A stretch of 64,000 nucleotides of DNA from Prosthecobacter debontii (GCA_945869465.1 CAMBPB010000002.1:27874-91873), one strand, 5' to 3'; positions 2,120 through 62,234 are shown, numbered from the stretch's first letter. Program-made: numbers and translations. The notes: generated by a model not told the origin, from the sequence alone.

Positions 2120-3409
2120 ATGAATTCACCCGGTCCGCTCTCGAAGAAGTTGTTCGCTGTTGCCAAGGAGTTCATCCCTGGTGGGGTGAATTCGCCTGTC
2201 CGTGCTTTTCGTAACGTTGGCGGCGAGCCGTTTTTCGTGCGCCGCGCGGCTGGCAGCCGGATTGAGGACATCGATGGCAAGACCTACATCGACTACATCG
2301 GTTCGTGGGGCCCGAACATTCTCGGCCATGCGCCGGTGGTCATCACCAATACCATCCATGAAGTCGCCAAGAGCGGCATCTCCTTCGGCATCCCCAATCC
2401 GTTTGAAGTCGAAATGGCCCGCACGATCTGCGGTTGGGTGCCCTCGGTGGAAAAGGTCCGCATGTGCAACTCTGGCACCGAGGCCACGATGTCGGCCATC
2501 CGCCTTGCCCGCGGATTTACGAAACGCGACCTGATCGTGAAATTCGACGGCTGTTATCACGGCCACAGTGACTCGCTGCTCGTTGCTGCCGGTTCCGGCG
2601 CGCTGACCCACGGCGAGCCCGATTCCGCCGGGGTTCCCAAAGCCTTTGCGGAAAAAACCCTGGTGCTGCCTTACAATGATGCCGAGGCACTCGAAACGCT
2701 CTTCGCCGCCCGCGGAGAGCAAATCGCCGCCATCATCGTCGAGTCCTACCCTGCCAACGCCGGTCTCGTGTTTCCAAGACCCGGCTATTTGAATCGGCTC
2801 TCCGCCATCACGAAACAGCACGGCGCCCTGCTCATCTTCGACGAAGTCATGACCGGCTTCCGCCTCGGCAAGGCCGGCGTGCAGGGACTTGAAAATCTAA
2901 CGCCGGATCTTTCCTGTTTCGGCAAGGTCATCGGCGGCGGCTTGCCGGTCGGTGCCTTCGGCGGCCGCGCCGACGTGATGGACATGCTCGCTCCCGACGG
3001 CCCGGTCTATCAGGCAGGCACCTTATCTGGCAACCCGCTCGCCATGGCCGCCGGACTGGCCCAGCTTAAGGAACTTTCCAAACCCTCCGGCTTCCCGCGC
3101 CTCGAACAACTCGGCGCCCACTTCGAAGCCGGCCTGCGCGAGTTACTCGCGGAAAAAGGCGTGCCGCATCGTTTGAACCGCGTCGGCTCGATGTTCTGTT
3201 TGTTCTTTACCGATCGCGAAATCGTCAACGTTTCCGACGTGATGAAGCAGGACCTCGGGTTTTTCAAAAAGTTTTTCTGGGGCTGCCTCGACAAGGGTAT
3301 CTACCTCGCGCCAAGCCCCTACGAAACCGGCTTCCTCTCTCTCGCCCATACCGAAGCGGATCTCGACGACACGCTATCGGTCTTTCGCGAGGTGCTGACC
3401 GGGATCTGA
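2120..3409 (+). CDS. hemL: Glutamate-1-semialdehyde 2,1-aminomutase
   Basis: IPGGVNSPVRAF, NSGTEATMSAIRLARGFT, FDEVMTGFR, FGKVIGGGLPVGA. Confidence 0.97.
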   Translation: MNSPGPLSKKLFAVAKEFIPGGVNSPVRAFRNVGGEPFFVRRAAGSRIEDIDGKTYIDYIGSWGPNILGHAPVVITNTIHEVAKSGISFGIPNPFEVEMARTICGWVPSVEKVRMCNSGTEATMSAIRLARGFTKRDLIVKFDGCYHGHSDSLLVAAGSGALTHGEPDSAGVPKAFAEKTLVLPYNDAEALETLFAARGEQIAAIIVESYPANAGLVFPRPGYLNRLSAITKQHGALLIFDEVMTGFRLGKAGVQGLENLTPDLSCFGKVIGGGLPVGAFGGRADVMDMLAPDGPVYQAGTLSGNPLAMAAGLAQLKELSKPSGFPRLEQLGAHFEAGLRELLAEKGVPHRLNRVGSMFCLFFTDREIVNVSDVMKQDLGFFKKFFWGCLDKGIYLAPSPYETGFLSLAHTEADLDDTLSVFREVLTGI

Positions 3410-3415
3410 TCGAGC

Positions 3416-4495
3416 TCACTTAAAAACCGCTAGAACCGGCCGATGGTCGGAAGCTTCGCTCCATGACGGATCGTCGATGATGCGGGAGGTCTTGAAGTCC
3501 ACCTCGGGTTTAAGCATGCGGGTGACAGTGATGTAATCGAACCGCGAGTAGGTGTCATGCAAGGCCCAGTGATGAGTCCATGCCTCGCCACGCGAGTCTT
3601 TGGCGGGAATTGCAGTGAGATAGCCGGGATCGTTGTAATTTCCGGTCACCGTCCGGAAGGCCTTGCTCGGGCGCGTGTCGTTAAAATCGCCATACACGAT
3701 CAGGCGGGCGTTCGTGTCGGTTAGAAGGATCGCGTCCACGTGGTGGCGCAGCAAGCGGGCCTCGTGAATCCGCATCTCCTCCTGATCGGCTTCCTCGACC
3801 TCGCGTTTGGATTTCAAATGTACGCCGAGAAACCGATAGGACTTACCGCGTGCGCGGATGGTGGCATCGAGGATTCCGCGGTTGATGGCAAAGGTCCGGC
3901 CTTTGAGTTGGTAATCGACCTCAGCGGGTTTCGCCCTCGAGGTGATCGGAAAGCGGGATAACAGCCCGAGATGGCGGATGGGGTCGGACCCGCCGGTGTA
4001 GAGCACATGGGGCAGGTCAAGCCCGGCGGCTTTGAGGGAATTCTGAATTTCCGCCAGATCCCCGGCCTCGCCGATTTCGCAGAGGCCGACGATGTCCGGC
4101 GAGTGGCTCACCAGAATGTCGATGACCGCCTGTTTCTCCGCAGCGGGTTTGGGGGCGTTTTGCGAGGGCTTCTGGTCAGTAAAGCGGTCCATGGTCAGCC
4201 AGTTTTCCACGTTGTAGGCGATGAATCGCAGTCCCTCCGTGGAGGGCGGTGCCACGGCTGAGGGTGGGGCTTGCGCAGTTGTGGTCCGTCCGGAGACCGG
4301 TTTTGCAACGACGGAGTTGGAAACTTCGGCAACCGCGGGTTTTCCCACTTCCTCGCGGCCCCATTCGGGGGTGCCGGTCTTTTTGCCGCAGGACGTGAAC
4401 CAGAGCGCAAGGGCACCAACGAAAACGGCCCCGGTAAACCCCGGGGCACGCTTTGCAAGGAGACCGGAAAACCGCCCTTGGCTCATGAAAATCAA
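3416..4495 (-). CDS. Endonuclease/exonuclease/phosphatase family lipoprotein
   Basis: Lipobox-like WFTSC; IAYNVEN, GLCEI, VHLKS, GDFND, SDHRPV. Confidence 0.88.
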   Translation of the reverse strand: MIFMSQGRFSGLLAKRAPGFTGAVFVGALALWFTSCGKKTGTPEWGREEVGKPAVAEVSNSVVAKPVSGRTTTAQAPPSAVAPPSTEGLRFIAYNVENWLTMDRFTDQKPSQNAPKPAAEKQAVIDILVSHSPDIVGLCEIGEAGDLAEIQNSLKAAGLDLPHVLYTGGSDPIRHLGLLSRFPITSRAKPAEVDYQLKGRTFAINRGILDATIRARGKSYRFLGVHLKSKREVEEADQEEMRIHEARLLRHHVDAILLTDTNARLIVYGDFNDTRPSKAFRTVTGNYNDPGYLTAIPAKDSRGEAWTHHWALHDTYSRFDYITVTRMLKPEVDFKTSRIIDDPSWSEASDHRPVLAVFK

Positions 4496-4704: not shown

Positions 4705-5010
4705 AAGTTGATTGGTGTTGTTGAGAAAACCGTAAACCCGCTTCCGGGGCGGCGCAACGCATTTACCGGGAAACATTTTCTGATCTTTCAGAGGCCCCCG
4801 CCTGCTTGCCGGCCGGCCCACCCCGGTATGCACCGCAGGCGGCGCCGCGCCCACATTATCAAACCGATCATCCGCTCCGCGTGCCCTGCATCTCAGCGCT
4901 GCGAGCGGTGCTTGGCCGGTTGGATTGGCTGCAAACAAATCCCGTCCCGGCATTGACGCCGAGGGCTTGTTCGGGTGAGATTCCGCACCCGCCCGCCGGC
5001 GGCGCCTGCC

Positions 5011-15748: not shown

Positions 15749-16147
15749 TCATTTCGGTCGGTTGCGGCCGCGGACTTCCAATATCGTCGGTTCGTGGCAA
15801 TAGGGACACCGAAAGGAATTCCTGAACAATACCGCCAGAGCCACCCGCAGGCGGTGGCTGCCGAGAAAGCTCCGGGCACGCCGGTTGGTCGCACATTTTT
15901 TGGCGGCGAGAACCGGCGTCATGCACAGCGGGCAACCGGTTCGTGAGGCGACGAGCCATTGCAGGATGGTGGTTAGTGCCGTCAGGGCGATCAACCCGAT
16001 CCCGATGATGGTGAGCTGGTGGTTGCTGGTAATCGTGGATTGGATCAAGACCCCGCCAGTGACCGGGACCAGCATGCATTTGGCGCACAGAAGGAAGGCG
16101 GCAAGGCGAAAGCGGTGGATGAGGGATTTCGATTTAAGCCGGTGCAT
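15749..16147 (-). CDS. Hypothetical membrane protein with two CxxC motifs
   Basis: Two TM segments followed by CPLC...CPYC. Confidence 0.6.
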   Translation of the reverse strand: MHRLKSKSLIHRFRLAAFLLCAKCMLVPVTGGVLIQSTITSNHQLTIIGIGLIALTALTTILQWLVASRTGCPLCMTPVLAAKKCATNRRARSFLGSHRLRVALAVLFRNSFRCPYCHEPTILEVRGRNRPK

Positions 16148-16204
16148 CAGGGATTGGCTAAAAGTCAGGAGCGATGGAAAAGTTTACACAGCAAAGCGGG
16201 GCAA

Positions 16205-16474
16205 TCAAAAAAAAGAGCCCTGTCCCTCATCGCCGCGGCGGGCGGACGTAGGGCCGGCCAGCAGGGCGTCGATGCGAGTGAGCAGGTCGAGCGACGGCAC
16301 TTCGTTGCCATCCAACAGCACCCGCAGGCGGGTCCGCCATTGCTCAAGGGTGCCGCCTTCTTCCGCGGCGAGCACCATGGCGGTCTGGGTGAGGCGGCCG
16401 CTGACCGCCAACTGGCGGCCGGTCCGGCGCAGCCAGGCTTCAAAATAAGGACGGTCGGTCTTCGGGGTGAACAC
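16205..16474 (-). CDS. Small hypothetical protein, possibly HTH-like
   Basis: 89 aa, co-oriented just downstream of uvrB, ends QGSFF. Confidence 0.55.
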   Translation of the reverse strand: MFTPKTDRPYFEAWLRRTGRQLAVSGRLTQTAMVLAAEEGGTLEQWRTRLRVLLDGNEVPSLDLLTRIDALLAGPTSARRGDEGQGSFF

Positions 16475-16506
16475 GGCGGGAGACTCGGATCAATCCACCC
16501 GCGGGG

Positions 16507-18702
16507 TCAAGATTTCCCTCGGGCTTTGCGAGTGCGGGCGTTGTTCGCGCCCGGATATTTCACCGGCCGCATGGCGGTGGCGGTGGCCGGGTTCTTTAAC
16601 GCGGCGATCTGGTCGCGGAGATGGGCGGCGCGCTCGAACTCTAACCGGGATGACGCCTCCCGCATGTCCTCTTCAAGTTCCGCGATCACGCGCAGTTGGT
16701 CGTAGGTTTCCTCATCCTCGGCGACCAGCGAGCGGTTCAGGTGTTCGGCCTGCTCCCGTTCCTTTTCGTGGGTGTGCAGGCTTTGTTGCTGCGCGCGCTT
16801 GACGCTTTGCGGGGTGATTCCGTGTTCCTCGTTGTGAGCCTGCTGCCGGGTGCGGCGGTATTCGGTGATGTTGAGCAACGCCTGGATGGAATCGGTCACC
16901 ACATCACAGAACAACACGCACTCTCCGCCAAGGTGTCGGGCGGCGCGCCCCGCGGTCTGGATCAATGAGGTTTCATTGCGCAGGAAACCCTCCTTGTCCG
17001 CGTCGAGAATGCAAACCAACGAGACTTCCGGCAGATCGAGCCCTTCGCGCAGCAGGTTGATGCCGACTAACACATCCACCGTGCCCGCGCGGAGTTGGCG
17101 CAGGATTTCCACCCGCTCGACGGCGTCGATGTCGGCGTGGATATAGCGCACCTTGAGGCCGGTGCCCTGCAGGTATTCGCTGAGATCCTCGGCGGTTTTT
17201 TTGGTGAGCGTGGTGACTAACACCCGCTCGTGCCGCTCGACCCGCTGGCGGCACAGTTCGATGGTCTCGTCGATTTGCCCTTTGAGCGGACGCAGCTTGA
17301 TCACTGGATCGAGCAGTCCAGTGGGCCGGATGATTTGCTCGACGACGAGCGGGGTGCCGCGTTTGGCCGGATCGAAGTGTTCCACCGGTTCGGCGTTTCC
17401 GCTCGGGGTGAGGTGGATTTTCCGCATGATGGCGGGCAGTGTCCGGCCTGCCGCGTCTTTGGTTTTCACGGGGATGAACGAGTGGTTTTCCGGGCGTGAG
17501 TTGACGAGTTCAAAGGGTCCCGGTGTCGCGGAGACATAGAGCCGCTGGCCGGTCATGTGCATGAACTCTGCGAAACGCAGCGGCCGGTTGTCCAAGGCGC
17601 TCGGCAATCGGAAGCCGTGATCGACGAGCACCGTCTTGCGGCTTTTGTCGCCCTCAAACATGCCGCCGATCTGCGGAATCGTGGCATGGCTTTCATCGAT
17701 CATCAGCAGGAAATCGCGCGGAAAAAAGTCCAGCAACGTGTGCGGCCGCGCGCCCGGCTCGCGGCCGGTTAGGTGGCGCGAGTAGTTTTCGATTCCCTGG
17801 CAGAAGCCCATCTCGGCCATCATTTCGAGATCGTAATCCGTGCGCATCCGCAGCCGCTGCGCTTCCAGCAGTTTGCTGTCCTTTTCGAACCTCGCCACCT
17901 GCTCGTCGGCCTCCTTGCGGATCTCCACGGTCGCTCGCTTCATCTTGTCGCCCGGTGTCACGAATTGTTTGGCCGGGAAGAAAGTGTGCTTTTCCAGCCG
18001 CTCGATCAGATGTCCTGTGAGCGTGTGGATGCTGCTGATCCGTTCCACCTCGTCGTCGAAAAACTCCACCCGGATCGCGGTCTCGTCGAGATAGGCCGGG
18101 TGGACCTCCACCACATCGCCGCGCACCCGGAATTTGCCGCGCCCGAAGGCGATGTCGTTGCGTTCGAACAGCATGCCCACCAGCGAGTTGAGAAACTCCT
18201 CGCGCGTCAGCTTTTGCCCGGTCCACACCGGCACCATCATGGTTTCGTAGTCCTCCGGCGAACCCAGGCCATAGATGCAGGAAACCGAAGCCACCACGAT
18301 CGTGTCCTGGCGCGTCAGCAGCGAACCCATCGTGCTGAGCCGCAGGCGTTCGATCTCGTCGTTGATCGACGAATCCTTCTCGATATAAGTATCGCTCCGC
18401 GGGATGTAGGCTTCTGGCTGATAGTAATCGAAGTATGAGACGAAATACTCCACCGCATTGTGCGGGAAGAAGTTCTTGAACTCCGAGTAAAGCTGTGCCG
18501 CAAGCGTTTTGTTGTGGCTCATAATCAGCGTCGGCTTGCCATGCAGTGCGATCAGGTTCGCCATCGTGAAGGTCTTTCCCGAGCCGGTGACTCCCAGCAA
18601 AGTCTGGTGGCGATTGCCGGCCGCCAGCGATTTCGCGAGTTTGGCGATGGCCTGCGCCTGATCGCCCTCAGGTTGGTAATCGCTGACCAATTGGAAGTCC
18701 AT
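16507..18702 (-). CDS. uvrB: Excinuclease ABC subunit B
   Basis: GVTGSGKT, FVSYFDYYQPEAY, DESH, SATPG, NLLREGLD, QTAGRAAR, FERAAHLRD. Confidence 0.98.
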   Translation of the reverse strand: MDFQLVSDYQPEGDQAQAIAKLAKSLAAGNRHQTLLGVTGSGKTFTMANLIALHGKPTLIMSHNKTLAAQLYSEFKNFFPHNAVEYFVSYFDYYQPEAYIPRSDTYIEKDSSINDEIERLRLSTMGSLLTRQDTIVVASVSCIYGLGSPEDYETMMVPVWTGQKLTREEFLNSLVGMLFERNDIAFGRGKFRVRGDVVEVHPAYLDETAIRVEFFDDEVERISSIHTLTGHLIERLEKHTFFPAKQFVTPGDKMKRATVEIRKEADEQVARFEKDSKLLEAQRLRMRTDYDLEMMAEMGFCQGIENYSRHLTGREPGARPHTLLDFFPRDFLLMIDESHATIPQIGGMFEGDKSRKTVLVDHGFRLPSALDNRPLRFAEFMHMTGQRLYVSATPGPFELVNSRPENHSFIPVKTKDAAGRTLPAIMRKIHLTPSGNAEPVEHFDPAKRGTPLVVEQIIRPTGLLDPVIKLRPLKGQIDETIELCRQRVERHERVLVTTLTKKTAEDLSEYLQGTGLKVRYIHADIDAVERVEILRQLRAGTVDVLVGINLLREGLDLPEVSLVCILDADKEGFLRNETSLIQTAGRAARHLGGECVLFCDVVTDSIQALLNITEYRRTRQQAHNEEHGITPQSVKRAQQQSLHTHEKEREQAEHLNRSLVAEDEETYDQLRVIAELEEDMREASSRLEFERAAHLRDQIAALKNPATATAMRPVKYPGANNARTRKARGKS

Positions 18703-18854
18703 GTGCCGCGAGTGATAAGCCCGGGTTCGGAATTCTGCAAGGGTAGGGAGACGATGGCCAAGAAAGGTCTCGCGGGGAGCATGGCATCGCCCAGCCGCTC
18801 GAAGGTTCGGACTTTGAAATCCAACGGGACAACCTCAAAGAATGGATTGAAATC

Positions 18855-21769: not shown

Positions 21770-22224
21770 TCAAGATCCTTCAGGAAGTCGTCGCCCTTGT
21801 TTTCGAGCGGGTTTTTGTTCGGCGGGGCTGTTAGCTCGTCACCGACGCCGAGGGTGGAAGGCGCATCGGGTTTGGGCGGCGCCTGTGGGACTTCCGCAAC
21901 GGCGGGAGGCGCCGCCACCGGGGGCGCAGGAGTGTTCGTCGTAACGGGAGCCGGGGCTTGTTTGCCGCCGAGGAAAAACGGGATGGCGGTGAATAACAGG
22001 ATTCCGCCCGCGACAAGGCCGGTGGAGAGGATGAGCGAGCGGGCGAGCTGGCTGGAGGAAACCACGCCAAGCATTTCCTGCGGGCTCTTGCCTTTGAGTT
22101 CGCGCAGGAACGCCTGCAACTCCTGCACGGTGGCGCGCGAGTTGCCCTTGAGTTCGCGCAAGTCGGCGGCGGTGCTGGCCAGCGCGTTGCGTCCGGTTGC
22201 GGAAGGGTTGGGTTGGATCTTCAT
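21766..22224 (-). CDS. Single-TM hypothetical protein with Pro/Ala-rich C-terminus
   Basis: Overlapping start/stop with both neighbours; one hydrophobic helix. Confidence 0.75.
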   Translation of the reverse strand: MKIQPNPSATGRNALASTAADLRELKGNSRATVQELQAFLRELKGKSPQEMLGVVSSSQLARSLILSTGLVAGGILLFTAIPFFLGGKQAPAPVTTNTPAPPVAAPPAVAEVPQAPPKPDAPSTLGVGDELTAPPNKNPLENKGDDFLKDLE

Positions 22225-34722: not shown

Positions 34723-34739
34723 GGTTTTGAAAGGTGATG

Positions 34740-39569: not shown

Positions 39570-41747
39570 TCATGGCTCAGCAACGGGCACGGCTCGGGGG
39601 ATGACTGTGCCCTCGTCGTCGATTTCCGGAGTGAGGGTGGGAGTGGGGGTGGCGGTGTTGTCGGCCGACGGGGTGGTGGCTTCCGCGACCATTTCGCCGA
39701 CTTCGTCGCCGGTTTCGCCGGGATCGGAAAGTTCGAAGGGTTCGTTGGCGTCGATGGCGGCGAGCACGTCGGCGGGCAGTTCGATGGCTTCGATGCGCTC
39801 GGTGTTGCCGGCGAATTCGGTTTGCGGTTTGAGCGGCAGTTTGAGGCCCTCGTCCTGGGCGAAGAGGCCGCGGTAAATCAGGTGGACGAGGGGTCCGCAG
39901 ACGCCGCCGCCGGAGCCGGCGTTTTGCACCAGCACGCAGACCGCGTATTTGGGGTTTTCGTAGGGGGCGAAGCTGATGACCCAGGAGTTGTTGGATTTTT
40001 TGCCGTTTTCGGTGGTCTGGGCGGTGCCGGTTTTCGCGGCGACTTCCATGTGCGGCATTTTGACCTTGCCGGCGGTGCCGCCCCTAACATTGACGGCCAT
40101 CCACATGCCTTTGCGGATCATGTCGAAATCCTTGGCTTTAACGCCGGCTTCGATCAGATCGACGACGAGTTTGGGTTGCTCCGAGATCAGCACCTTGCCT
40201 TCTTCGGAGACGGCCCTGCGCACGATGCGCGGCTGATAGTATTTGCCGCCGTTGGCGACGCAGGCGGTCATCGCGCAGAGTTGGAGCGGGGTGGTCATCG
40301 TGTCTCCCTGGCCGATCGAGACGAAAGCGGTGAGCACGGGAGTCATTGCGGCGCTGGGGTTGGCGGCGCGCCAGGCGCGGCTGCCGGGCAGGATGCCGGG
40401 TTTTTCGGAGGGCAGCTCGATGCCGGTGCGTTTGCCGATGCCGACCATCTGGCAGCCTTCGACCATGGCCCGCCAGCCGATGGTGTTGGCGAGTTTGTTA
40501 AAGTAGGGGTTGCAGGATTGCTGGAGGGCTTTTGACAGCGTCAGCGAGCCGTGGGCACCTTTGCTTTTGTTCCACAACCAGCAGCCGACCTTGTGATTGC
40601 CGTAGGCCACATAGCCGTCGCATGAAAACGACCGGGACGACATTCCCTGAAGCGCGCCGGAGATGGCCGTGGGCACTTTCATGGTCGAGCCGGGAGCGTA
40701 TTCGGAGATCGCACGGTTGGTTAGAGGCGAGAGCAGTTTGGCTTCGATGTATGATTTCCAGCGCTCGGGCGCGATGCTCGGAATGAAGGCGTTGGGTTCG
40801 TAGTCGGGCACCGAGGCCATGGCGAGCACCTCGCCGGTGTTGACATCCATCACGACGCCGGCGGCCCGTCCCGCGCGGCGAAGTACGTTTTCAAGGAGGT
40901 ATTGCTTGCGGGCGTCGATGGAGAGCTGGACCTTGGCGCCAGTGCCTGGTTTGGCGTAGTCGGACATGCGGATGGTCCGGCCCTTTTCGTCTTTGACTAC
41001 GGTCTTGCGGCCTTCCGGGCCGCGGAGCATGGTGTCCATGCTGGCCTCGACGCCGGCGATGCCTTTTTGGTCTCCGATATAGTGGTTGAAGACGCGGGTG
41101 GCGCTGTCCGGCACGTCGCCCTTTTCCCATTGTTTCAGATAGCCGATGACATGGCTGGCCAACGAGCCATAGGGATACTGCCGCTGCGGCCGGATGCCGA
41201 CGTAAACGCCGGGCAGGTCGAGATTGTGTTCCGCGAATTTCGCAAACTCCTCGTAAGTGAGGTCGGTGCGATAGCTGAAGGGAATGAGACCGCCGTGAGT
41301 GAGGTAATGGGTGCGCAGGTCGCCGGCTTTGTAGTTCTTGGCCAATCCAAGCGCCTTCAAGCGGCCGATGGTGCTTTCCTTGCCATCCTGGACGATGGCG
41401 ACGATGTCCTTCTCCTCCGCCTCGCGATCGATGCCGTCCTTGCGGGTGACGCGTTTGATTTTGGGGTCGTTCTGGTGCTGGGCCTGATAGGCCTGGCGGA
41501 TTTCCTCGAGGTTGAAGGAAACCTCGTATTTGCGGAGGTTGCGGGCGAGGGTGATGCCGTTGCGGTCGGTGATTTCGCCGCGGATGCCGGGCTCGCGGAC
41601 GGTGACGGTGCGGTTGCCGGGAACCAGGTTGAGGAATTCGTTGCGGCGCTCGATCTGGAACTCGTGCAGGCGTGTCAGCAACACGCCGAAGCCGACGAGC
41701 ACGAGTGCCGTCAGCAGATAGAGTCGGAAGCGGTAGCCGGGTTCCAT
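39570..41747 (-). CDS. mrdA: Penicillin-binding protein 2
   Basis: RGEITDRNG, PGSTMK (SxxK), QSCNPYF, AAKTGTAQ; lies in the mre operon. Confidence 0.9.
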   Translation of the reverse strand: MEPGYRFRLYLLTALVLVGFGVLLTRLHEFQIERRNEFLNLVPGNRTVTVREPGIRGEITDRNGITLARNLRKYEVSFNLEEIRQAYQAQHQNDPKIKRVTRKDGIDREAEEKDIVAIVQDGKESTIGRLKALGLAKNYKAGDLRTHYLTHGGLIPFSYRTDLTYEEFAKFAEHNLDLPGVYVGIRPQRQYPYGSLASHVIGYLKQWEKGDVPDSATRVFNHYIGDQKGIAGVEASMDTMLRGPEGRKTVVKDEKGRTIRMSDYAKPGTGAKVQLSIDARKQYLLENVLRRAGRAAGVVMDVNTGEVLAMASVPDYEPNAFIPSIAPERWKSYIEAKLLSPLTNRAISEYAPGSTMKVPTAISGALQGMSSRSFSCDGYVAYGNHKVGCWLWNKSKGAHGSLTLSKALQQSCNPYFNKLANTIGWRAMVEGCQMVGIGKRTGIELPSEKPGILPGSRAWRAANPSAAMTPVLTAFVSIGQGDTMTTPLQLCAMTACVANGGKYYQPRIVRRAVSEEGKVLISEQPKLVVDLIEAGVKAKDFDMIRKGMWMAVNVRGGTAGKVKMPHMEVAAKTGTAQTTENGKKSNNSWVISFAPYENPKYAVCVLVQNAGSGGGVCGPLVHLIYRGLFAQDEGLKLPLKPQTEFAGNTERIEAIELPADVLAAIDANEPFELSDPGETGDEVGEMVAEATTPSADNTATPTPTLTPEIDDEGTVIPRAVPVAEP

Positions 41748-42336: not shown

Positions 42337-42342
42337 GGGCGG

Positions 42343-43155
42343 TTAGGAATCGGCGTCCAGTAAAACGAATACCGCGCCAAGATCCGCGAAGTTCACCGAG
42401 GGTCGGACGAGAGCTTCAGAATCCAGCGCGCCTTTTTCCACGGAATCGATGGTTCCAAGGAGGATGTTGGCCTTGAAGGTGCCCCCGCGGCCGGTGGTGA
42501 ACACGCGCTGGCCGGAGTGGACGGAGGTGTTGGCGGAAAGGAATTTCAGACGCAGCATCGGATCGCCGTCGAAGCCGCCGCGCTGGCCGCTGAGGATGCC
42601 GACCTCGGGCGAGTTTTCGATCCGCACCGAGACCTGGCATTTCTCGTCGGTGAGAAGCAGCACCGACGAGCGTTCGCCGCCATTGTCGATGCGGTCGATC
42701 TTGCCGACGAGGCCCTGGTTAGAAAGCACCGCGAGCTGGGTGCCGACGCCGCGCTTGGAACCCGCGTCGATTTCGACGGTTTGCCACCAGGTGGTGGGAT
42801 TGCGGCGGATGACGCGGGCGGCGACCACATCGAAGGTGGTGGCTTTTTTGAAGTCGAGCGCGTGGCGGAGTTGCACGTTTTCGTATTCGAGGGCGCGGAA
42901 GCGGGACTCGATGAGGCGGAGGCGGCCGAGTTGTTCGCGGGTGGATTCGAGTTCGGCTTCGAGTGCCTTGGAGTGGTGGGTTTCCCCGAGAAACGCGCGG
43001 GCCTGGGTTTCCATTTTGGAGCCGGATTTCAGGAACGGCGACATCGCCGAATAGTAGGCGTTTTGGATTTCCCTCACCGTCCGATCGCTGCGAGTAAGCG
43101 CCCAGACGGCACCTCCGAGGAAGAGCAGTAACGCGATGAGGTTGAGCGGCTTCAT
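42343..43155 (-). CDS. mreC: Rod shape-determining protein MreC
   Basis: TM anchor, coiled coil, ARVIRRNP, GLVGKI, VFTTGRGG. Confidence 0.92.
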   Translation of the reverse strand: MKPLNLIALLLFLGGAVWALTRSDRTVREIQNAYYSAMSPFLKSGSKMETQARAFLGETHHSKALEAELESTREQLGRLRLIESRFRALEYENVQLRHALDFKKATTFDVVAARVIRRNPTTWWQTVEIDAGSKRGVGTQLAVLSNQGLVGKIDRIDNGGERSSVLLLTDEKCQVSVRIENSPEVGILSGQRGGFDGDPMLRLKFLSANTSVHSGQRVFTTGRGGTFKANILLGTIDSVEKGALDSEALVRPSVNFADLGAVFVLLDADS

Positions 43156-51431: not shown

Positions 51432-54400
51432 TTGAAAACTCACGCAAAATGCCCTTCGACCCGAGGTTTTGCCCTGGTCGTCACGCTTTCCCTGATGATT
51501 CTGTTGACGCTGGTTGCCATCGGCATGCTGACGTTATCCACGGTCACACTGCGTGCCACCGGCCAGGGTGAAGCGATGACGGCCGCCCGAAGCAACGCAC
51601 GGCTGGGGTTGATGTTGGCGATTGGAGACCTGCAGAAATCGCTCGGTCCCGACAAGGCGATCACCGCAACTTCCGAAATTCTAACAACCTATCCCGCCAA
51701 AGCCAACACCACCGGTGTCTGGGAATCATGGGATTTCAACCCGCTCAGCGCTCCGGGCTACAGCACCGAGAAAACGGCCCGGTTCCGCCGCTGGCTGGTT
51801 TCCAGTGCGGATCCGGCGGCGCCCGAATCCCTGGATTTCGGAATCTCCCCATGGACCGGCGAGACGATCGAACTGGTGGGCGACGCCTCGTTAGGCGGCA
51901 ATGCGGCGGATGGCGCGAAAGCGGTTGCGGGAAAAGTCCCCGTCTCCCGCGACGGGAAAGTCCATGGCGCGTTCGCCTGGCATGTGGCGGACGAATCCGT
52001 GAAAGCCCGCATCAATCTCTATCGGGATCCCCGCCAGAACGCCACGTTGGCGCAAAAAGGCGCGCTGCTTGCCGGGCAGCGGCCGGATCCCTCGGTGATG
52101 AAGGGTGCCGATGGCGGATTCATGGATTTCCTTGCCACCGATGTGGCCACCTCCGCTGCCGATACCGCCCTGAAAAATTTCACCAAGGCCAAGGAGACCA
52201 CCGGGAAAATCCTCGATCTCGATCAGGTGGAGTTGCACGGCAACGCCAGGGGCAGGATCAAACCGTTTCGCAACCACGTGACGCCCTATTCGCTGGGCCT
52301 GCTGACGGATGTGCGCAAGGGCGGCCTCAAGCAGGATTTGTCGTCCGTGTTTGAAATGAACACCGCGCTGCCAAGTGAATTCACCAGCCGCAAGTTGTAT
52401 CAATCGACCCACGGCATCACTGGCGTTTCCGACCCCTATTGGAGCGCCCTTTCCGGCTACTACAACTCCTTCCGGAGCATCACTTCCCGCGAAACCAGTC
52501 CGACGTTCAACACCAAGCCGGTGCAGGACATCGCGTTCACCAATCTGGCGCCGTCCACCACCTACTCGCCGGGTCCGGTCATCGCCAAAATCGAGATGCT
52601 TTTTAACTTCGTGGCCCGCGAATCGCACGGCATGTGGACCTCCCCGCTCAAATCGCAGAGTTCCGAAAACCTATATATGGGTCACCTGGTGCTAACTCCC
52701 GTCATCACCCTGCACAATCCCTACAACATCAATCTCTCGTTCGATCAACTCGACGTGGCTTTCCAAAACCTGCCCGTCGCGTTCAGATTCTACGTCAATG
52801 GTGCGGCGCAAAACACCCAATTTGTGTCGTTGAACTCGCTGTATTGGGATGACAACCTCAGTCAGGACCGGAAGTTCATCATCGGCATCGCCAACTGGTC
52901 CAACTACACCGCCAATGATACTTCCAGGGCCAGCCCGATCATCATGAAGCCCGGCCAAACCCTGGTGTGCGGAATTTATATGAACCCGCAGACCATTTTC
53001 AGTTACGGCGACGACAGCTCGTGGATTACTAACGACAGGGATCTCAGGGGCAAGTTTGTCAAGGCCATCCCCGGATTCAAGGGGCGTTGCTTCGGCTACG
53101 ACCTGGACGTGCTCTCGCCGGTAAACTACAGTCCGCCGGACGCCAACCAGAGCGACGGGGTGCACCGGGTGCTCGGGTTGAAGCCCGACGACCTGGTTCA
53201 CATGGAATTCGCCATTCAGAAGCCCCCCATGGATCCGAGTGGCGAGTTCAAGGTGCTCGCCACGATATCCTCCAACGGATCGACCAAGGAATACGGCGGC
53301 CTGAGTTTTAAATATCAGGACGCTGCCACCCTCAAATCGTTGTTCCCCAAAGTCTATCGATATCCCGCCAGCGGGGCCTTCAGGGCCAGCGATTCCCATG
53401 TGTCTAACACAATTACCCCAGACGCCTTTTTTTCCAACCATGCCAACGCGAAGACCGTGGCGATTTTCTCGGCCTATGCCCGCACCGCCAACGGCGGGGT
53501 GTATGAAACCGGCAAGCGCAGCGAAACCGCCGGGGCGCTCAATGCCCTGCGCGACGGTCGTCTGGCTGGCAAACCCTTCCTATTCCATAATCCGGCCCGC
53601 ACGGTCGTCACGGTGGATTTGAAGAACCAGAAACCCGGCTCGCAATCCCATGAGCTCAACCTCCAGCCGCTCCCCGGATCTCCTGATGATGTCCTGCCAA
53701 TCGACAATCTCGACCGCAGCCCTTATCTAACGGCGAATACCGAAACCCGGGGAATCAAATCCGGCAGCTATCTGGAATTGCCCACCGGGCCGATGCAGAC
53801 GATCGCCGGTTTCCGCAGGTCCAACGCCTTGACCTCGTCCTATCTGCCCAATTTCGTGCAACCCGTCGGCAATTCGCAAGTCTCTCCGCTGATGTCCACG
53901 ACCAAGGTGAACCAGACGGATCCGGCCATGGCCAGTTATGCCTTGCTCGACCACTCGGTGCTCGCCAACCACGCGCTTTACGACCGGTTTTATTTTTCCA
54001 GTTTCGCGACGCGGGGGACCGTGCTGCCGGACTCGGTGTTCGAGCAGTTCATGAATGGAACCACGCCGCTGGCGTCGCAGGTCTTCCAGTCCTATCTGCC
54101 CGCCGGCAAGACCGTCTCCACCGCCAAGGCGGAACTCTTCGCATCCGGCAAACCTAAAAGCACGGCCTATCAGACAGTGGCGGAATACCAGATGGTTCAG
54201 GGGCCGTTCAATGTCAATTCGACCAGCGTGCAGGCTTGGAAGGCAAGGCTGGCGTCGCTCAACAAGAGCGACATCGCCACCCTGTGGGCGAAAAGCACGG
54301 CGCTCGAAAGCAAGCCGTCGGGCGGCATTCCCATCCTCGCCATGTCCCTCCTCAACGGCGGTCGGGCGGGCGCCGCCGTGGATGCCGCTAAGATCGATAA

Positions 54401-55007
54401 CCCGAAGACCAACGATTGGAACGGCTATCGGGTGATTACCGAATCCGAGCTTGAAATCCTCGCGACAAAAATCGTCCAACAAGTGCGTCTTCGCGGCCCG
54501 TTCCTTTCGATGTCGGAGTTCGTGAACCGCCAGATCGGCGTGAAGTCGCCTTTGACCCTCAGCGGTGCGCTGGAAGCGGCTATCACCGAGTCCGGGATCA
54601 ATGACAACACCTTTAAAACCCAGGTGACCAACATCGAGCTAAGGGATATCAGCAACGCAGCCCTATACCGTTACAACACGCCGGAAGCCTCACTTGGCAA
54701 CCCGGCGGCCGGGGCACCCGGATGGATCAGCCAGGGCGACCTGATGCAAATCCTCGAACCCGCTGCCACCGTGCGTTCCGACACCTTCGTCATCCGGGTT
54801 TGTGGTGAGGCGAAGGATGCCGCCGGAAAGGTGAGTGCGCGCGCCTACGCCGAAGCCGTGGTGCAGCGCGTGCCCGAATATCTTGACCCCGTGGACCGGC
54901 CGTCGTTGCATGTTTACACCGATGTTGCGGCAGCCGCGGCCAACAAGACTTTTGGACGCCGCATGAGCGTGGTCTCGTTCCGGTGGCTGACCGCCAATGA
55001 AATCTAA
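51432..55007 (+). CDS. Large type IV/pseudopilin-like protein (Verru_Chthon cassette protein A-like)
   Basis: Prepilin-type N-terminus RG|FALVVTLSLMILLTLVAIGML; ARSNARLG...LQKSLGPD; GPFNVNSTSVQAW; C-terminal SDTFVIR...GRR...FRWL. Confidence 0.8.
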   Translation: MKTHAKCPSTRGFALVVTLSLMILLTLVAIGMLTLSTVTLRATGQGEAMTAARSNARLGLMLAIGDLQKSLGPDKAITATSEILTTYPAKANTTGVWESWDFNPLSAPGYSTEKTARFRRWLVSSADPAAPESLDFGISPWTGETIELVGDASLGGNAADGAKAVAGKVPVSRDGKVHGAFAWHVADESVKARINLYRDPRQNATLAQKGALLAGQRPDPSVMKGADGGFMDFLATDVATSAADTALKNFTKAKETTGKILDLDQVELHGNARGRIKPFRNHVTPYSLGLLTDVRKGGLKQDLSSVFEMNTALPSEFTSRKLYQSTHGITGVSDPYWSALSGYYNSFRSITSRETSPTFNTKPVQDIAFTNLAPSTTYSPGPVIAKIEMLFNFVARESHGMWTSPLKSQSSENLYMGHLVLTPVITLHNPYNINLSFDQLDVAFQNLPVAFRFYVNGAAQNTQFVSLNSLYWDDNLSQDRKFIIGIANWSNYTANDTSRASPIIMKPGQTLVCGIYMNPQTIFSYGDDSSWITNDRDLRGKFVKAIPGFKGRCFGYDLDVLSPVNYSPPDANQSDGVHRVLGLKPDDLVHMEFAIQKPPMDPSGEFKVLATISSNGSTKEYGGLSFKYQDAATLKSLFPKVYRYPASGAFRASDSHVSNTITPDAFFSNHANAKTVAIFSAYARTANGGVYETGKRSETAGALNALRDGRLAGKPFLFHNPARTVVTVDLKNQKPGSQSHELNLQPLPGSPDDVLPIDNLDRSPYLTANTETRGIKSGSYLELPTGPMQTIAGFRRSNALTSSYLPNFVQPVGNSQVSPLMSTTKVNQTDPAMASYALLDHSVLANHALYDRFYFSSFATRGTVLPDSVFEQFMNGTTPLASQVFQSYLPAGKTVSTAKAELFASGKPKSTAYQTVAEYQMVQGPFNVNSTSVQAWKARLASLNKSDIATLWAKSTALESKPSGGIPILAMSLLNGGRAGAAVDAAKIDNPKTNDWNGYRVITESELEILATKIVQQVRLRGPFLSMSEFVNRQIGVKSPLTLSGALEAAITESGINDNTFKTQVTNIELRDISNAALYRYNTPEASLGNPAAGAPGWISQGDLMQILEPAATVRSDTFVIRVCGEAKDAAGKVSARAYAEAVVQRVPEYLDPVDRPSLHVYTDVAAAAANKTFGRRMSVVSFRWLTANEI

Positions 55008-55012
55008 CTTGC

Positions 55013-56614: not shown

Positions 56615-57904
56615 ATGCACGGATTCTCCTACAAAAACGGTTCACTTTATTGCGAAGATGTCGATTTGGCCACGCTTGCCACCGAGTATGGCACCCCGCT
56701 CTATGTCTATTCCGCGGGGACGATTCTCGATCATTACCGCCGCCTTGATGCCGCGCTGGCCGGTGTGAATCACGAGGTGGCGTATGCGGTGAAGGCGAAT
56801 TCCAATCTCTCGGTACTCCGCTTGCTTGCCAACGAGGGCGCCGGTTTCGACATCGTTTCGGGTGGCGAGCTCTATCGGGTGATCAAGGCTGGCGGGGATC
56901 CGGCGCATTGCACCTTTGCCGGTGTCGGCAAGACTCGCGACGAGATCGTGTATGCCCTCGAACAGGGGATCTACTCGTTCAACGTCGAGAGCGAGGAGGA
57001 ACTTCGCTATCTGAACGAAGTGGCTGGCGAACTCGGCGTGATTGCGCCCGCTGCGGTGAGGGTGAATCCCAATGTCGATGCGCACACTCACAAGTATATC
57101 TCCACCGGCAAGTCCGAGAACAAGTTCGGGGTCGATTTCGGGGCTATCGCCGGACTTTACGAACGCGCGGCAGCGGAGATGCCTAACATCCGGATGCGTG
57201 GCCTGCAAATGCACATCGGATCACAGCTCACCTCAATCGCGCCGTTCATCGAGGCGGTGGAAAAAGTCGCGCCGCTCGCCAGGGAACTCAAGGAGCGCCA
57301 TGGCATCGAATTCTGGTCCATCGGCGGCGGCATCGGGATTATCTACAAGGGTTCGCTGGAATCCGGCAGTGTCGAATGGTGGGAAAGCCAAACCGATGAA
57401 GAGCGCCCGCTGACCACCGTGCGCTATGGGGCCGAACTCGTGCCACGCCTCAAGGAGCTCGGCTTGAAAATCCTGGTGGAACCCGGTCGTTTCATCGTGG
57501 GCAATGCCGGCGTGCTGCTCACCCGCTGCCTCTTTGAGAAAAAGGGCGCGGCCAAGACTTTCAAAATCGTCGATGCCGGAATGAACGATCTGATCCGTCC
57601 GGCACTCTACGAGGGCCACCATGAAATCGTCCCGCTCAAACAACCGGCGACGGATGCGCGGGTCACCGTGGATGTGGTGGGGCCGATCTGTGAGAGCGGC
57701 GACTTTTTCTGCCAGAACCGCGAGCTGCCCGACTTTCAGCCCGGCGATACCGTCGCGTTGATGTCCGCGGGCGCCTATGGTTTTGTGATGGCTTCGAATT
57801 ACAACTCGCGGCCCTTGCCTGCCGAGATTCTGGTCGAGGGATCGACCTCGACCGTCGTCCGCAAACGCCAGAGCCTGGATGATCTGATCGACGGTGAGCT
57901 CTAA
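56615..57904 (+). CDS. lysA: Diaminopimelate decarboxylase
   Basis: YAVKANS, HIGSQ, GGG, EPGR, GPICESGD, GAYG...SNYNSRP. Confidence 0.97.
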   Translation: MHGFSYKNGSLYCEDVDLATLATEYGTPLYVYSAGTILDHYRRLDAALAGVNHEVAYAVKANSNLSVLRLLANEGAGFDIVSGGELYRVIKAGGDPAHCTFAGVGKTRDEIVYALEQGIYSFNVESEEELRYLNEVAGELGVIAPAAVRVNPNVDAHTHKYISTGKSENKFGVDFGAIAGLYERAAAEMPNIRMRGLQMHIGSQLTSIAPFIEAVEKVAPLARELKERHGIEFWSIGGGIGIIYKGSLESGSVEWWESQTDEERPLTTVRYGAELVPRLKELGLKILVEPGRFIVGNAGVLLTRCLFEKKGAAKTFKIVDAGMNDLIRPALYEGHHEIVPLKQPATDARVTVDVVGPICESGDFFCQNRELPDFQPGDTVALMSAGAYGFVMASNYNSRPLPAEILVEGSTSTVVRKRQSLDDLIDGEL

Positions 57905-57922
57905 CCGTTTCTGTGGTGGGCA

Positions 57923-59873: not shown

Positions 59874-59886
59874 GGCGGCGGGGCGC

Positions 59887-60123: not shown

Positions 60124-60260
60124 GGTGGTGGGGTGAAATGGTGGGTGTCTGCATGCCTTCGAAGGGCCTCCGATGCAACCCGATTTTTCGAGAACTTGTG
60201 ATTTGTCATTCGCACTGGTCAAGCGACGGTTCCGCCCGTAAGAAAAACCAAGCGCCCGCC

Positions 60261-61394: not shown

Positions 61395-61406
61395 ACCCCC
61401 ATCATC

Positions 61407-62234
61407 ATGCCCATATCAGAAGTCACTCCCATCGTGCCCAGAGAAGGCTGGCACGTCATGCATTTGTTCTATCACGTCGATCACGCGCAATGGGCGCTGT
61501 ATGGCGACGATGAAAAACGCCAGGCCAAGACCCGCCTCACGGAGTTGGTGCAGGAAATCCGCGCCACGCCCGACACCCACCTGCTGATTTTCTCGGTGGC
61601 GACGCCCAAGGCGGACCTCGGGTTCATGCTTCTAACACCCGACTTGCAGGTGGCGAACACTTATGAGAAACAACTCGGCCTCTCGCTCGGGCCGGAGATC
61701 CTCAGCGCGGCGTATTCCTATCTCTCGCAGACGGAAAGTTCCGAATACACCACCAGTCGCGAGCAATACGCCGCGGAAACGCTGGTGGAGGAAAAAGGCC
61801 TGGCCGATGGCACCCCAGAGTTCGAAACCGCGCTCAAGGAGTTCGACGAGCGGATGGCCCACTATCTCAAACACCGACTCTATCCGGTGCTGCCGGACTG
61901 GCCGGTGATCTGTTTCTATCCAATGTCGAAGCGCCGCAGCGGGGCCGACAACTGGTATGCCCTCAGCTACGAGCAGCGCCGCGAGCTGATGTCCGGCCAC
62001 GCCCGAGTCGGCCGCACTTATTCGGGCCGAATCCTCCAGCTCATCACCGGCTCGACCGGCCTTGATGAATACGAATGGGGCGTCACCCTGCTGGCCAAGG
62101 ACACCATCGACATCAAGTCGATCGTCTATGAAATGCGCTTCGACGAGGTGTCCGCCCGCTACGCCGAATTCGGCGATTTTTTCGTCGGCATGCAGCTCCC
62201 GCTAGACGTGCTGTTCCGGCGGATCTGTTTGTAG
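61407..62234 (+). CDS. hemQ: Coproheme decarboxylase HemQ/ChdC (chlorite dismutase-like)
   Basis: EGWHVMHLFY, CFYPMSKRR, NWYAL, HARVGR, GSTGLDEYEWGV, EMRFDEVSARYAEFG. Confidence 0.88.
   Translation: MPISEVTPIVPREGWHVMHLFYHVDHAQWALYGDDEKRQAKTRLTELVQEIRATPDTHLLIFSVATPKADLGFMLLTPDLQVANTYEKQLGLSLGPEILSAAYSYLSQTESSEYTTSREQYAAETLVEEKGLADGTPEFETALKEFDERMAHYLKHRLYPVLPDWPVICFYPMSKRRSGADNWYALSYEQRRELMSGHARVGRTYSGRILQLITGSTGLDEYEWGVTLLAKDTIDIKSIVYEMRFDEVSARYAEFGDFFVGMQLPLDVLFRRICL

What the first reader, a model, noticed from the sequence alone, without database searches (positions are those of the whole stretch)
2896..61636. Dispersed pentamer CTAAC/GTTAG (possibly CTARC) appears to be selected for in all frames and both orientations
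Seen: counting by eye gives about 70 CTAAC/GTTAG sites against about 20 other CTAA-N/N-TTAG sites, and the latter cluster in intergenic or AT-rich DNA. If the fifth base were random, roughly a third of sites would be CTAAC. The motif is built from codons that are otherwise scarce here, in several phases: CTA-AC (very common), xCT-AAC (13303 region, 25137, 57183), G-TTA-G (uvrB 16641-16645, 17067-17071, 17217-17221), GTT-AGA (21156-21160) and GTT-AGG (40084-40088). It also forms TAA stop codons as C-TAA-C (34739, 42342, 55004, 57901). About 20 of 25 CTAG sites fit CTAGC/GCTAG, so the true motif may be CTARC. Orientation follows the coding strand rather than one DNA strand. Inference: no single mutational route (e.g. 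5mC deamination of GTCAG) produces all these contexts, so this looks like positive selection for a genome-wide signal. Known analogues are GATC/Dam, cyanobacterial HIP1 and nucleoid-protein sites; candidates are a modification site or a DNA-binding-protein site. I know of no described motif of this sequence in Verrucomicrobia.
Basis: partly seen in the sequence, partly recalled or inferred. Interest (0 to 1): 0.82.

Follow-up and report, generated by a model that had tools for sequence, protein, structure and literature searches.

The report
Over-abundant DNA word CTAAC in Luteolibacter
This Luteolibacter-like bacterium and many relatives write the five-letter DNA word CTAAC about once per kilobase into their own genes, against their codon habits and on both strands, which resembles the DNA uptake words of Neisseria and Haemophilus, but the protein that reads it was not found.

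Summary
The window has 73 CTAAC/GTTAG sites against 22 sibling sites (CTAA followed by A, G or T). The whole genome has 3420. Under a shuffle that keeps each protein and each gene's codon usage, CTAAC is the most enriched 5-mer (observed/expected 2.46, z about 45), while its siblings fall to 0.24-0.33. Every permitted frame, both orientations, TAA stop codons and spacers all show it, so it is a DNA-level effect.

The word has soft flanks (Y-CTAAC-A-R). It is scattered at random at about 1 per kb in native genes and is not enriched in atypical low-GC3 genes. It shows no bias towards either replication strand. Individual sites are kept no better than neutral synonymous sites.

Across 151 genomes of the genus its strength varies about 40-fold. 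G000, the genome that holds this window, is intermediate. A Chthoniobacterales family carries a sharper version, GCCTAACGA, with 1803 copies in one genome.

5mC deamination, Vsr repair, the genome's only recognisable DNA methyltransferase, Chi/KOPS-type signals and sequencing error were tested and not supported.

Best reading: this is the recognition word of an unidentified sequence-specific DNA protein, kept abundant by biased fixation as in DUS/USS uptake sequences. The mechanism is inferred, not shown.

The parts
2896..61636 (.). Span holding 73 dispersed CTAAC/GTTAG sites (30 CTAAC and 43 GTTAG on the + strand), about 1.14 per kb
   Evidence: Codon-shuffle O/E in the window is 3.08 (59 observed against 19.2 expected, z 8.8).
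2897..2901 (+). First site. It reads CTA-AC (rare Leu codon CTA followed by Thr) in a + strand gene.
   Evidence: Genome-wide, CTA is 16.7% of Leu codons before AC, against about 2% elsewhere.
16641..16645 (+). CTAAC on the + strand, which reads G-TTA-G (rare Leu codon TTA) in uvrB on the - strand. The same applies at 17067-17071 and 17217-17221.
   Evidence: (UvrB Pfam domains). Genome-wide, G-TTA-G is 673 observed against 197 expected.
25137..25141 (-). GTTAG on the + strand, which reads xCT-AAC in the 2374-aa - strand gene. That gene carries about 18 sites.
40084..40088 (+). CTAAC on the + strand, which reads GTT-AG in a - strand gene
34739..34743 (-). C-TAA-C stop codon of the - strand ORF 34740..37184
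   Evidence: Genome-wide, 121 of 510 TAA stops are C-TAA-C.
42342..42346 (-). C-TAA-C stop codon of the - strand ORF 42343..43155
55004..55008 (+). C-TAA-C stop codon of the + strand ORF 51432..55007
57901..57905 (+). C-TAA-C stop codon of the + strand ORF 56615..57904
57183..57187 (+). xCT-AAC site in a + strand gene (local sequence GCCTAACA)
61632..61636 (+). Last site, CTA-AC in a + strand gene

Best explanation
CTAAC/GTTAG is the core of a short double-stranded DNA word. The soft consensus is (W)T/C-CTAAC-A-R in this genus. It is read by a still unidentified sequence-specific DNA-binding or DNA-processing protein of the lineage.

Changes that create the word are fixed more often than changes that destroy it. 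DNA that has lived long in the lineage therefore settles at about one copy per kb, whatever the frame, the strand or the codon cost, while individual copies turn over.

The most likely concrete form is a DNA uptake or self-recognition word of the DUS/USS kind: biased uptake or recombination of conspecific DNA acts as a molecular drive.

Shown: the DNA-level enrichment, its anatomy, its lineage pattern and its second version (GCCTAACGA).
Inferred: that a protein reads it, and that a drive rather than site-by-site selection maintains it.
Not shown: any uptake, binding or modification.
For: 1. The effect is at the DNA level and is symmetric. It uses pairs of rare codons in both orientations. TTG-TTA-G is 252 observed against 12.6 expected. 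CTA-ACA-A is 50 against 3. T-TCT-AAC is 209 against 8.8. It also appears at stops and in spacers.

2. Preferences extend 2-3 bases on each side of the core. CCTAACAA occurs 241 times against 9 for CCTAAGAA. CTA takes 42% of Leu codons in the T|Leu-Thr context. Variants of the 4th base are tolerated when CAG follows. This looks like the graded recognition expected of a protein reading DNA.

3. Density is about 1 per kb in native genes whatever their codon bias. O/E rises from 1.06 in the lowest-GC3 genes to 3.65 in the highest. Density rises with local GC. [quoted passage not shown]

4. The scatter is random, with no clusters or inverted pairs, and per-gene counts are Poisson.

5. Sites turn over. 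Only 15-21% of G000 sites are kept in the enriched relatives G001 and G018. Co-occurrence odds ratios are 5-11, but retention is not above what the residual 4-fold-site identity of 0.53-0.58 predicts.

6. The trait is heritable and graded. The ratio of YCTAACA to its reversed control ranges from 0.15 to 6.7 across 151 genus genomes. Counts are about equal on both strands in nearly every genome (one, G584, reads 1763 against 1365). The pattern is clade-structured on a UvrB tree.

7. A second version exists. Chthoniobacterales genome G389 has GCCTAACGA 1803 times against 70 for the reversed control. G513 has 852 and G472 has 318, and nearly all of the other 197 genomes of the class sample have 12 or fewer (family member G138 has 60 and G034 has 75, near their reversed controls). 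This parallels the DUS dialects that share a common core (PMC3630211).

8. ComEC and DprA are intact in G000 and nearly all relatives.
Against: - No reader protein was found.
- ComEC and DprA are present in enriched and non-enriched species alike, so they do not discriminate.
- In G000 the core is only 5 bases and the enrichment is 2.5-fold for the 5-mer. The best 7-8-mers outnumber their G-for-C sibling words about 25-fold. This is far weaker than the DUS, USS or HIP1 words.
- A 5-7 base word would discriminate self DNA poorly.
- The word uses rare codons, whereas USS sit preferentially where preferred codons fit (PMC2817400).
- The contrast is weaker in spacers (odds ratio 2.5) than in coding DNA (odds ratio 9).
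- Natural transformation has not, to my knowledge, been shown in these bacteria.
Confidence: 0.45

Rival explanations
1. The word is the binding site of an abundant lineage-specific nucleoid or chromosome-organising protein. A minimum density of sites is selected in the cell's own DNA.
For: The same anatomy fits this reading: symmetric, about 1 per kb, soft flanks, in native DNA only. HIP1 was proposed to act in nucleoid structure (PMC5861425).
Against: Spacing is Poisson, with no sign of regularity (CV 1.12). Sites are not conserved above the neutral expectation. A 40-fold range among species of one genus is odd for a housekeeping architectural need. No candidate protein was found.
Confidence: 0.2
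2. Methylation-linked biased repair, as proposed for HIP1 or for Dcm/Vsr. An enzyme pair recognises the word and converts near-matches in mismatched DNA into the word.
For: It would act on both strands, in all frames and in spacers. It would give turnover without site conservation. Cognate methyltransferases accompany HIP1 (PMC4390886).
Against: G000 and G001 have no PF00145 C5 methyltransferase and no Vsr. G019 has a ratio of 2.5 and has neither. All six relatives with a ratio above 2 among G001-G024 lack Vsr. G000 has no PF02384 enzyme. Its single PF01555 methyltransferase occurs in 37 of 50 species, including non-enriched ones, and is missing from the strongly enriched G043, G065, G067, G070 and G087. 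No single one-base neighbour is specially depleted.
Confidence: 0.12
3. Context-dependent mutation bias alone, for example a hotspot CTGAC->CTAAC, with no protein that recognises the word.
For: There is turnover without conservation. CTGAC is mildly low (O/E 0.82). The trait varies gradually among lineages.
Against: The sequence dependence spans 9-11 bases, and in G389 it is a sharp 9-mer. That is wider than the short context I would expect for a mutational process (my general knowledge, not tested here). Building TTG-TTA-G from CTG-CTC-G needs several individually disfavoured steps. The CTGAC deficit (about 700) is less than half the CTAAC excess (about 1550). No C5 methyltransferase is present. 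The odds ratio differs between coding DNA and spacers.
Confidence: 0.08
4. A polar recombination or segregation signal of the Chi or KOPS type.
For: Such signals are short, over-represented, lineage-specific words written through genes. The Chi site of Bacillus subtilis is a 5-mer (from my own knowledge).
Against: There is no orientation bias once gene strand is accounted for. On the replication-G-rich strand the counts are 467 CTAAC against 522 GTTAG, and the sense ratio is 1.86 against 1.64, p 0.38. In G389 each 20-kb locus holds both orientations in about equal numbers. The replichore assignment here comes from contig-level skew and is approximate.
Confidence: 0.03
5. A translation-level codon-pair effect, or an assembly or sequencing artefact.
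For: The strongest single frame is CTA-AC on the sense strand. A separate sense-only effect does exist for CTATC.
Against: The reverse complement is enriched to the same degree on the sense strand (2.28 against 2.52), as are stops and spacers. Orthologous counterparts are ordinary synonymous codons that differ at 1-3 bases. The word is seen in dozens of independent assemblies. Stops in CTAAC context do not look like broken genes.
Confidence: 0.02

Closest known systems
DNA uptake sequences: DUS of Neisseriaceae and USS of Pasteurellaceae
   Same: - A short asymmetric word in hundreds to thousands of copies, about 1 per kb, on both strands and through coding DNA in several frames.
- Missing from genes without homologs in relatives.
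- Lineage 'dialects' that share a core.
- Thought to be kept by a drive, with little constraint on single copies (PMC2817400, PMC3630211, PMC1939737).
   Different: - The core here is 5 bases with soft flanks, and the enrichment is 2.5-fold for the 5-mer. The best 7-8-mers outnumber their G-for-C sibling words about 25-fold. DUS and USS are far more sharply over-represented. Only the Chthoniobacterales 9-mer reaches a comparable scale.
- It is written with rare codons.
- No uptake bias, receptor or natural transformation is known for these bacteria.
- The phylum is different.
HIP1 (GCGATCGC) of cyanobacteria
   Same: A hyper-abundant word written through genes. Its function is long unresolved. 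Its abundance varies between lineages (PMC5861425, PMC4390886).
   Different: HIP1 is a palindrome. It has two cognate orphan methyltransferases. Its sites are conserved between genomes and spaced periodically. Here the word is asymmetric, no cognate methyltransferase was found, sites are not conserved above neutral and spacing is Poisson.
Chi sites of RecBCD/AddAB
   Same: A short, species-specific, over-represented word that marks the cell's own DNA.
   Different: Chi is oriented with replication. No such polarity is seen here.
Preferred pentamers of xenogeneic silencers
   Same: A pentamer-scale DNA word whose density differs between native and acquired DNA.
   Different: The sign is opposite. 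Silencer words are rare in native DNA and common in foreign DNA. CTAAC is common in native genes and at expectation in atypical genes.

Membership tests
DNA uptake sequences (DUS/USS) | One specific word present in hundreds to thousands of copies, far above expectation, on both strands | tested here: met
   G000 has 3420 copies of CTAAC (O/E 2.46) and 241 of CCTAACAA against 9 of CCTAAGAA. Forward and reverse counts are about equal in nearly every genome (G584 reads 1763 against 1365). G389 has GCCTAACGA 1803 times against 70 for the control. The scale in G000 itself is weak for this family.
DNA uptake sequences (DUS/USS) | Accumulates in resident genes and is lacking in recently acquired genes | tested here: met
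   O/E is 1.06 in the lowest 5% GC3 genes and 3.65 in the top 10%. Density rises with local GC. 'Acquired' is inferred from composition only.
DNA uptake sequences (DUS/USS) | Related lineages carry dialects of the word with a shared core | tested here: met
   TCTAACA(R) in G643, G536 and L115. YCTAACA in G000 and G018. GCCTAACGA in the Chthoniobacterales genomes G389, G513 and G472.
DNA uptake sequences (DUS/USS) | Cells take up DNA carrying the word in preference to DNA lacking it | not testable with these tools
   This needs uptake or transformation assays.
DNA uptake sequences (DUS/USS) | Competence machinery present, and a receptor that reads the word | tested here: inconclusive
   ComEC is found in 33 of 35 genomes and DprA in 112 of 116, regardless of word abundance. 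No receptor candidate was examined.
HIP1-type palindromes | Palindromic word with cognate orphan methyltransferases | tested here: not met
   The word is asymmetric. G000 has one PF01555 methyltransferase, whose phyletic pattern does not follow the word.
HIP1-type palindromes | Sites conserved between genomes above neutral, and periodic spacing | tested here: not met
   Retention is 8-36% at shared opportunities, against about 30-40% expected from residual synonymous identity. Spacing CV is 1.12. Long-range periodicity was not tested.
Dcm/Vsr very-short-patch repair signature | A C5 methyltransferase and a Vsr endonuclease present, with the T-for-C neighbour word depleted | tested here: not met
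   G000 and G001 have no PF00145 and no PF03852. All of G003, G014, G017, G018, G019 and G023 (ratio above 2) lack Vsr. CTAAT and TTAAC are no lower than other TAA-containing words.
Chi / KOPS polar words | Orientation co-directional with replication | tested here: not met
   467 against 522 on the replication-G-rich strand, p 0.38 for the interaction. Orientations are mixed within each 20-kb locus of G389. The replichore inference is approximate.
Dispersed repeat element (REP/MITE) | Conserved sequence extending well beyond the core | tested here: not met
   Information content falls to about 0 beyond -3 and +3.

The most novel reading that the evidence does not exclude
CTAAC-core words are the uptake or self-recognition sequences of a natural transformation system in Verrucomicrobiota. 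TCTAACA(R) is the version in Luteolibacter-like Verrucomicrobiales, and GCCTAACGA is the version in a Chthoniobacterales family. If so, this would be, to my knowledge, the first such system with dialects outside the Neisseriaceae and Pasteurellaceae. Its reader could be found by phylogenetic profiling against the 40-fold range of word abundance.
Probability: 0.3. Interest if true: 0.85.

Novelty: new variant of a known kind. Interest (0 to 1): 0.72.

Why it matters
To my knowledge, genome-wide over-abundant words are known from very few bacterial groups: DUS, USS, HIP1 and Chi. Each has opened a piece of biology, such as self-recognition in transformation, control of recombination, or possibly nucleoid structure.

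Here the same kind of signal appears in common freshwater and soil Verrucomicrobia, a phylum in which almost nothing is known about DNA exchange or chromosome biology. The signal is graded 40-fold among 151 species of one genus, and a sharper version exists in another order. That makes the reader protein findable by comparative genomics and testable in cultured Luteolibacter.

There are practical uses as well. The word is a strong native-versus-acquired marker for these genomes, and it explains their odd use of the rare codons CTA, TTA and TCT.

Tried and rejected
1. 5mC deamination of GTCAG. CTGAC is only mildly low (O/E 0.82). G000, G001 and G019 have no C5 methyltransferase. Orthologous counterparts are mostly CTC-AC, G-CTC-G and G-CTG-G, not CTGAC.

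2. Vsr-type repair. G000 has no Vsr, and no genome with a ratio above 2 has one.

3. The only recognisable DNA methyltransferase of G000 (278 aa, SPPY motif, at C7:33866-34585). Orthologs at 72-85% identity occur in 37 of 50 species whatever their word abundance, and it is absent from five strongly enriched species. A motif scan for other amino-methyltransferases gave only RsmD and unrelated enzymes. Several giant proteins with NPPF/NPPW motifs were not checked.

4. Chi/KOPS polarity: none. Local GC skew in this genome follows the coding strand, so the simple skew window was misleading and was replaced by a decomposition.

5. Repeat element: flanks are not conserved.

6. Clusters, operator-like arrays or hairpin pairs: none. 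There are zero windows with 5 or more sites in 250 bp, and inverted pairs are rarer than direct pairs. From memory, GCCTAAC and GTTAGGC look like integron attC core sites. Without paired inverted copies I treat this as a resemblance only.

7. Alternative words in non-enriched relatives: none found.

8. Polarising SNPs with a near-identical strain. The one contig found is 99.89% identical, with 14 differences in 12.9 kb, which is too few.

9. ComEC and DprA phyletic patterns: both are nearly universal, so uninformative.

10. A 5-mer spans at most two codons, so such a null reproduces the count by construction. I used sibling words, the reverse complement, stops and spacers as controls instead.

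11. Literature: no paper links CTAAC, GTTAG or GCCTAACGA to a bacterial genome-wide motif.
Full report
**What was checked first.** The window is C2:27874-91873 of a 3.59-Mb, 161-contig, 61% GC assembly. I refer to this genome as G000. Record titles of related uvrB loci place it among Luteolibacter-like Akkermansiaceae/Verrucomicrobiaceae of the order Verrucomicrobiales.

The window holds 30 CTAAC and 43 GTTAG sites, 73 in all, against 22 sites of the sibling words CTAA[A/G/T].

**Is it more than chance?** The genome has 3420 sites. CTAAC is the highest 5-mer by maximal-order Markov O/E (1.83), although against plain base composition it is at 0.69. The reason is that all TA-containing words are strongly depleted here.

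I called 2323 genes crudely from long ORFs. Within each gene I shuffled synonymous codons among positions of the same amino acid. Observed is 2615 against 1063 expected (O/E 2.46, z about 45), the highest O/E of all 5-mers. CTAAA, CTAAG and CTAAT are at 0.24-0.33.

- All four permitted frames are enriched relative to their siblings: CTA-AC 4.2x, G-TTA-G 3.4x, xCT-AAC 1.5x, GTT-AG 1.3x. The sibling words in the same frames are at 0.2-0.5x.
- CTA makes up 16.7% of Leu codons before AC, against 1.4-3.7% in 14 other contexts. With a T before, it is 42%.
- TAA stops are C-TAA-C 121 times, against 18-25 for the other following bases.
- In strict spacers the word is still favoured: 97 against 84/45/42, with interaction odds ratio 2.46, compared with 8.96 in coding DNA.

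A codon-pair-preserving null would reproduce a 5-mer count by construction. The controls I used are therefore the sibling words, the reverse complement, stops and spacers.

**Anatomy of the word.**
- Flanks are not conserved beyond about 3 bases, so this is not a repeat element.
- Within that range there are consistent preferences in every frame: pyrimidine at -1, A at +1, R at +2, A at +3.
- The top 6- to 8-mers of the whole genome under the shuffle are members of the family: TCTAAC 5.4x, CTAACA 5.1x, CCTAACAA 14.7x, CTAACAAA 15x.
- Genome-wide, CCTAACAA occurs 241 times against 9 for CCTAAGAA.
- The extended words are built from pairs of rare codons in both orientations. TTG-TTA-G is 252 against 12.6. 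CTA-ACA-A is 50 against 3. T-TCT-AAC is 209 against 8.8. A translational cause would not be mirrored on the complementary strand.
- CTAGCAG and CTATCAG are also enriched in both orientations, while CTACCAG is depleted. The fourth base can therefore vary when the 3' flank is good. CTAGC alone is not enriched (0.74).
- CTATC as a 5-mer is mainly a separate sense-strand effect: C-TAT-C (2699 against 1383) and CTA-TC, while its complement GAT-AG is depleted.

**Distribution.**
- Gaps between sites are close to exponential (CV 1.12).
- There is no window of 250 bp with five sites, and inverted pairs are not favoured.
- Per-gene counts are Poisson (chi2/df 1.07).
- Density rises with local GC, from 2.0 per 5 kb below 56% GC to 6.1 above 63%.
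- O/E rises from 1.06 in the 5% of genes with lowest GC3 to 3.65 in the top 10%. Absolute density stays near 0.93-1.03 per kb in the upper three quarters of genes. Compositionally atypical DNA, which is probably acquired, lacks the enrichment.
- Local GC skew here follows the coding strand, which is C-rich. After separating that from a contig-level replication component, the orientation of the word shows no replication bias: 467 against 522, p 0.38.

**Evolution of sites.** I built codon alignments of orthologs from 60-100 kb samples of relatives.
- Only 15% (G001) and 21% (G018) of G000's sites are kept, although both relatives are themselves enriched.
- The counterparts are ordinary synonymous codons, often 2-3 bases away: CTC-AC, G-CTC-G, G-CTG-G. 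This excludes sequencing error.
- At positions where both species could encode the word synonymously, co-occurrence is above independence (odds ratios 5.3, 11.4 and 10.7, and 1.2 for G013). Retention is 8-36%.
- That retention is not above what the residual identity at 4-fold sites (0.53-0.58, meaning roughly a third of sites unchanged) predicts.

So I see no site-by-site purifying selection. The abundance is a property of density.

**Phyletic pattern.**
- Codon-shuffle O/E in samples: window 3.08, G001 2.60, G018 2.10, G013 1.46, G012 1.10, G008 0.82, G015 0.75, G029 0.62, G002 0.55.
- On a UvrB tree of 66 species, the 16 basal rows have no enrichment. A 50-row clade has many species at O/E 2-6 and some sub-clades without it.
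- Whole-genome counts of YCTAACA against its reversed control in 151 genus genomes range from 0.15 (G581) to 6.7 (G643). G000 is at 1.16. About a fifth of the genomes are above 2. The two strands are about equal in nearly every genome (one, G584, reads 1763 against 1365).
- The strongest genomes (G643 and G536, GC 52-54%) carry CTAAC at 2.0-2.8 per kb with consensus (A/T)TCTAACA(G/A). G581, at 61% GC, has 0.15 per kb.
- Non-enriched relatives show no replacement word.
- In a 301-genome sample of the phylum, I took the genomes with high YCTAACA counts and compared YCTAACA with YCTAAGA. Only G000 (ratio 19) and G389 (ratio 8) stand out. The others checked lie between 0.4 and 2.4.

**A second version.** G389 belongs to another order; its nearest named protein relatives are Chthoniobacterales. 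It has CTAAC at 2.05 per kb, codon-shuffle O/E 2.93 (z 17.6), in all four frames. Its flanks are sharp: G at -2 (0.73), C at -1 (0.67), G at +1 (0.70), A at +2 (0.75). That is the 9-mer GCCTAACGA.
- It occurs 96 times in 140 kb, in both orientations within each locus.
- It occurs 1803 times in the genome, against 70 for the reversed control.
- Two other genera of the same family have 852 and 318 copies, and a fourth has 60.
- Nearly all of the other 197 genomes of the class sample have 12 or fewer (G034 has 75).
- One-mismatch variants are the next most common words.

The shared CTAAC core with lineage-specific flanks parallels the DUS dialects of Neisseriaceae (PMC3630211).

**Tests of specific mechanisms.**
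- G000 and G001 have no C5 methyltransferase (PF00145) and no Vsr (PF03852).
- Among G001-G024, all six genomes with a ratio above 2 lack Vsr. G019 (ratio 2.5, 97% complete) also lacks any C5 methyltransferase.
- G000 has no PF02384 enzyme and one PF01555 methyltransferase. Orthologs of that enzyme are found in 37 of 50 species irrespective of the word, and it is missing from five strongly enriched species.
- CTGAC is only mildly depleted, and no one-base neighbour stands out.
- ComEC and DprA are intact almost everywhere. This permits the uptake reading but does not test it.

**Reading.** The breadth of the sequence dependence, the strand symmetry, the lineage-specific flanks and the native-versus-atypical contrast argue for a sequence-specific protein acting on DNA. 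The turnover of copies argues for biased fixation at the level of density, not for conserved functional sites.

Among known systems this is closest to uptake sequences (PMC2817400, PMC1939737, PMC3630211). It differs from HIP1, which is palindromic, has cognate methyltransferases and has conserved, periodic sites (PMC5861425, PMC4390886). It differs from Chi, which is polar.

The weak points are:
- No reader was identified.
- The short core and modest enrichment in G000 itself.
- The use of rare codons.
- The weaker contrast in spacers.
- The absence of any functional data.

**Earlier notes of this scan.** One search shows that other agents saw the same word in other Luteolibacter-like genomes, and as local islands in Chthoniobacterales. 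I treated these as leads. My own tests agree on the observation. They add the whole-genus gradient, the 9-mer version and the negative gene-content tests. They do not support the claim that single copies are specially well kept.

Noticed in passing
whole genome G000; window count 8: GTAC is almost eliminated (codon-shuffle O/E 0.13). GTCGAC is at 0.08 and TTAA at 0.24, which looks like avoidance of restriction sites. GTAC is also very low in G001, G002, G008, G012 and G018, but not in G029 and less so in G013.
   Followed up: partly
G000:C7:33866-34585 (- strand), outside the window: The only recognisable DNA methyltransferase of this genome is a 278-aa beta-class enzyme with an SPPY motif. 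NCBIfam gives only weak matches to adenine methyltransferases. Orthologs at 72-85% identity occur in 37 of 50 related species, which suggests a conserved orphan enzyme. Its target is unknown.
   Followed up: partly
G389 (L127-L132, L146), G513, G472: A Chthoniobacterales family carries the 9-mer GCCTAACGA in 318-1803 copies per genome (0.1-0.6 per kb), on both strands and in all frames. A fourth genus of the family (G138) has only 60 copies.
   Followed up: partly
G472:C9:459447-460251: G472 has the fewest GCCTAACGA copies (318) of the three 9-mer-rich genera of that family. In it, comEC is split by an internal TGA.
   Followed up: no
whole genome G000: GC skew follows the coding strand, which is C-rich (coding component -0.03 to -0.10). 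On contigs with a clear replication component, more genes lie on the C-rich strand.
   Followed up: partly
whole genome G000 and all genus samples: GGAAA/TTTCC (1.9x), GGAAAC (2.2x) and GAAAC are enriched under the codon shuffle in every species of the genus sampled, whether or not CTAAC is enriched. They are not enriched in G029.
   Followed up: no
whole genome G000: There are sense-strand-only context effects. C-TAT-C is 2699 against 1383 and CTA-TC is 513 against 141, while xCT-ATC is depleted. TTG is halved before AC (TTGAC, the core of the -35 promoter box).
   Followed up: partly
L041 (SRR3656954 contig) against window 15841-28702: A public metagenome assembly holds a strain 99.89% identical over 12.9 kb (14 differences). 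It could serve for population-level tests.
   Followed up: partly
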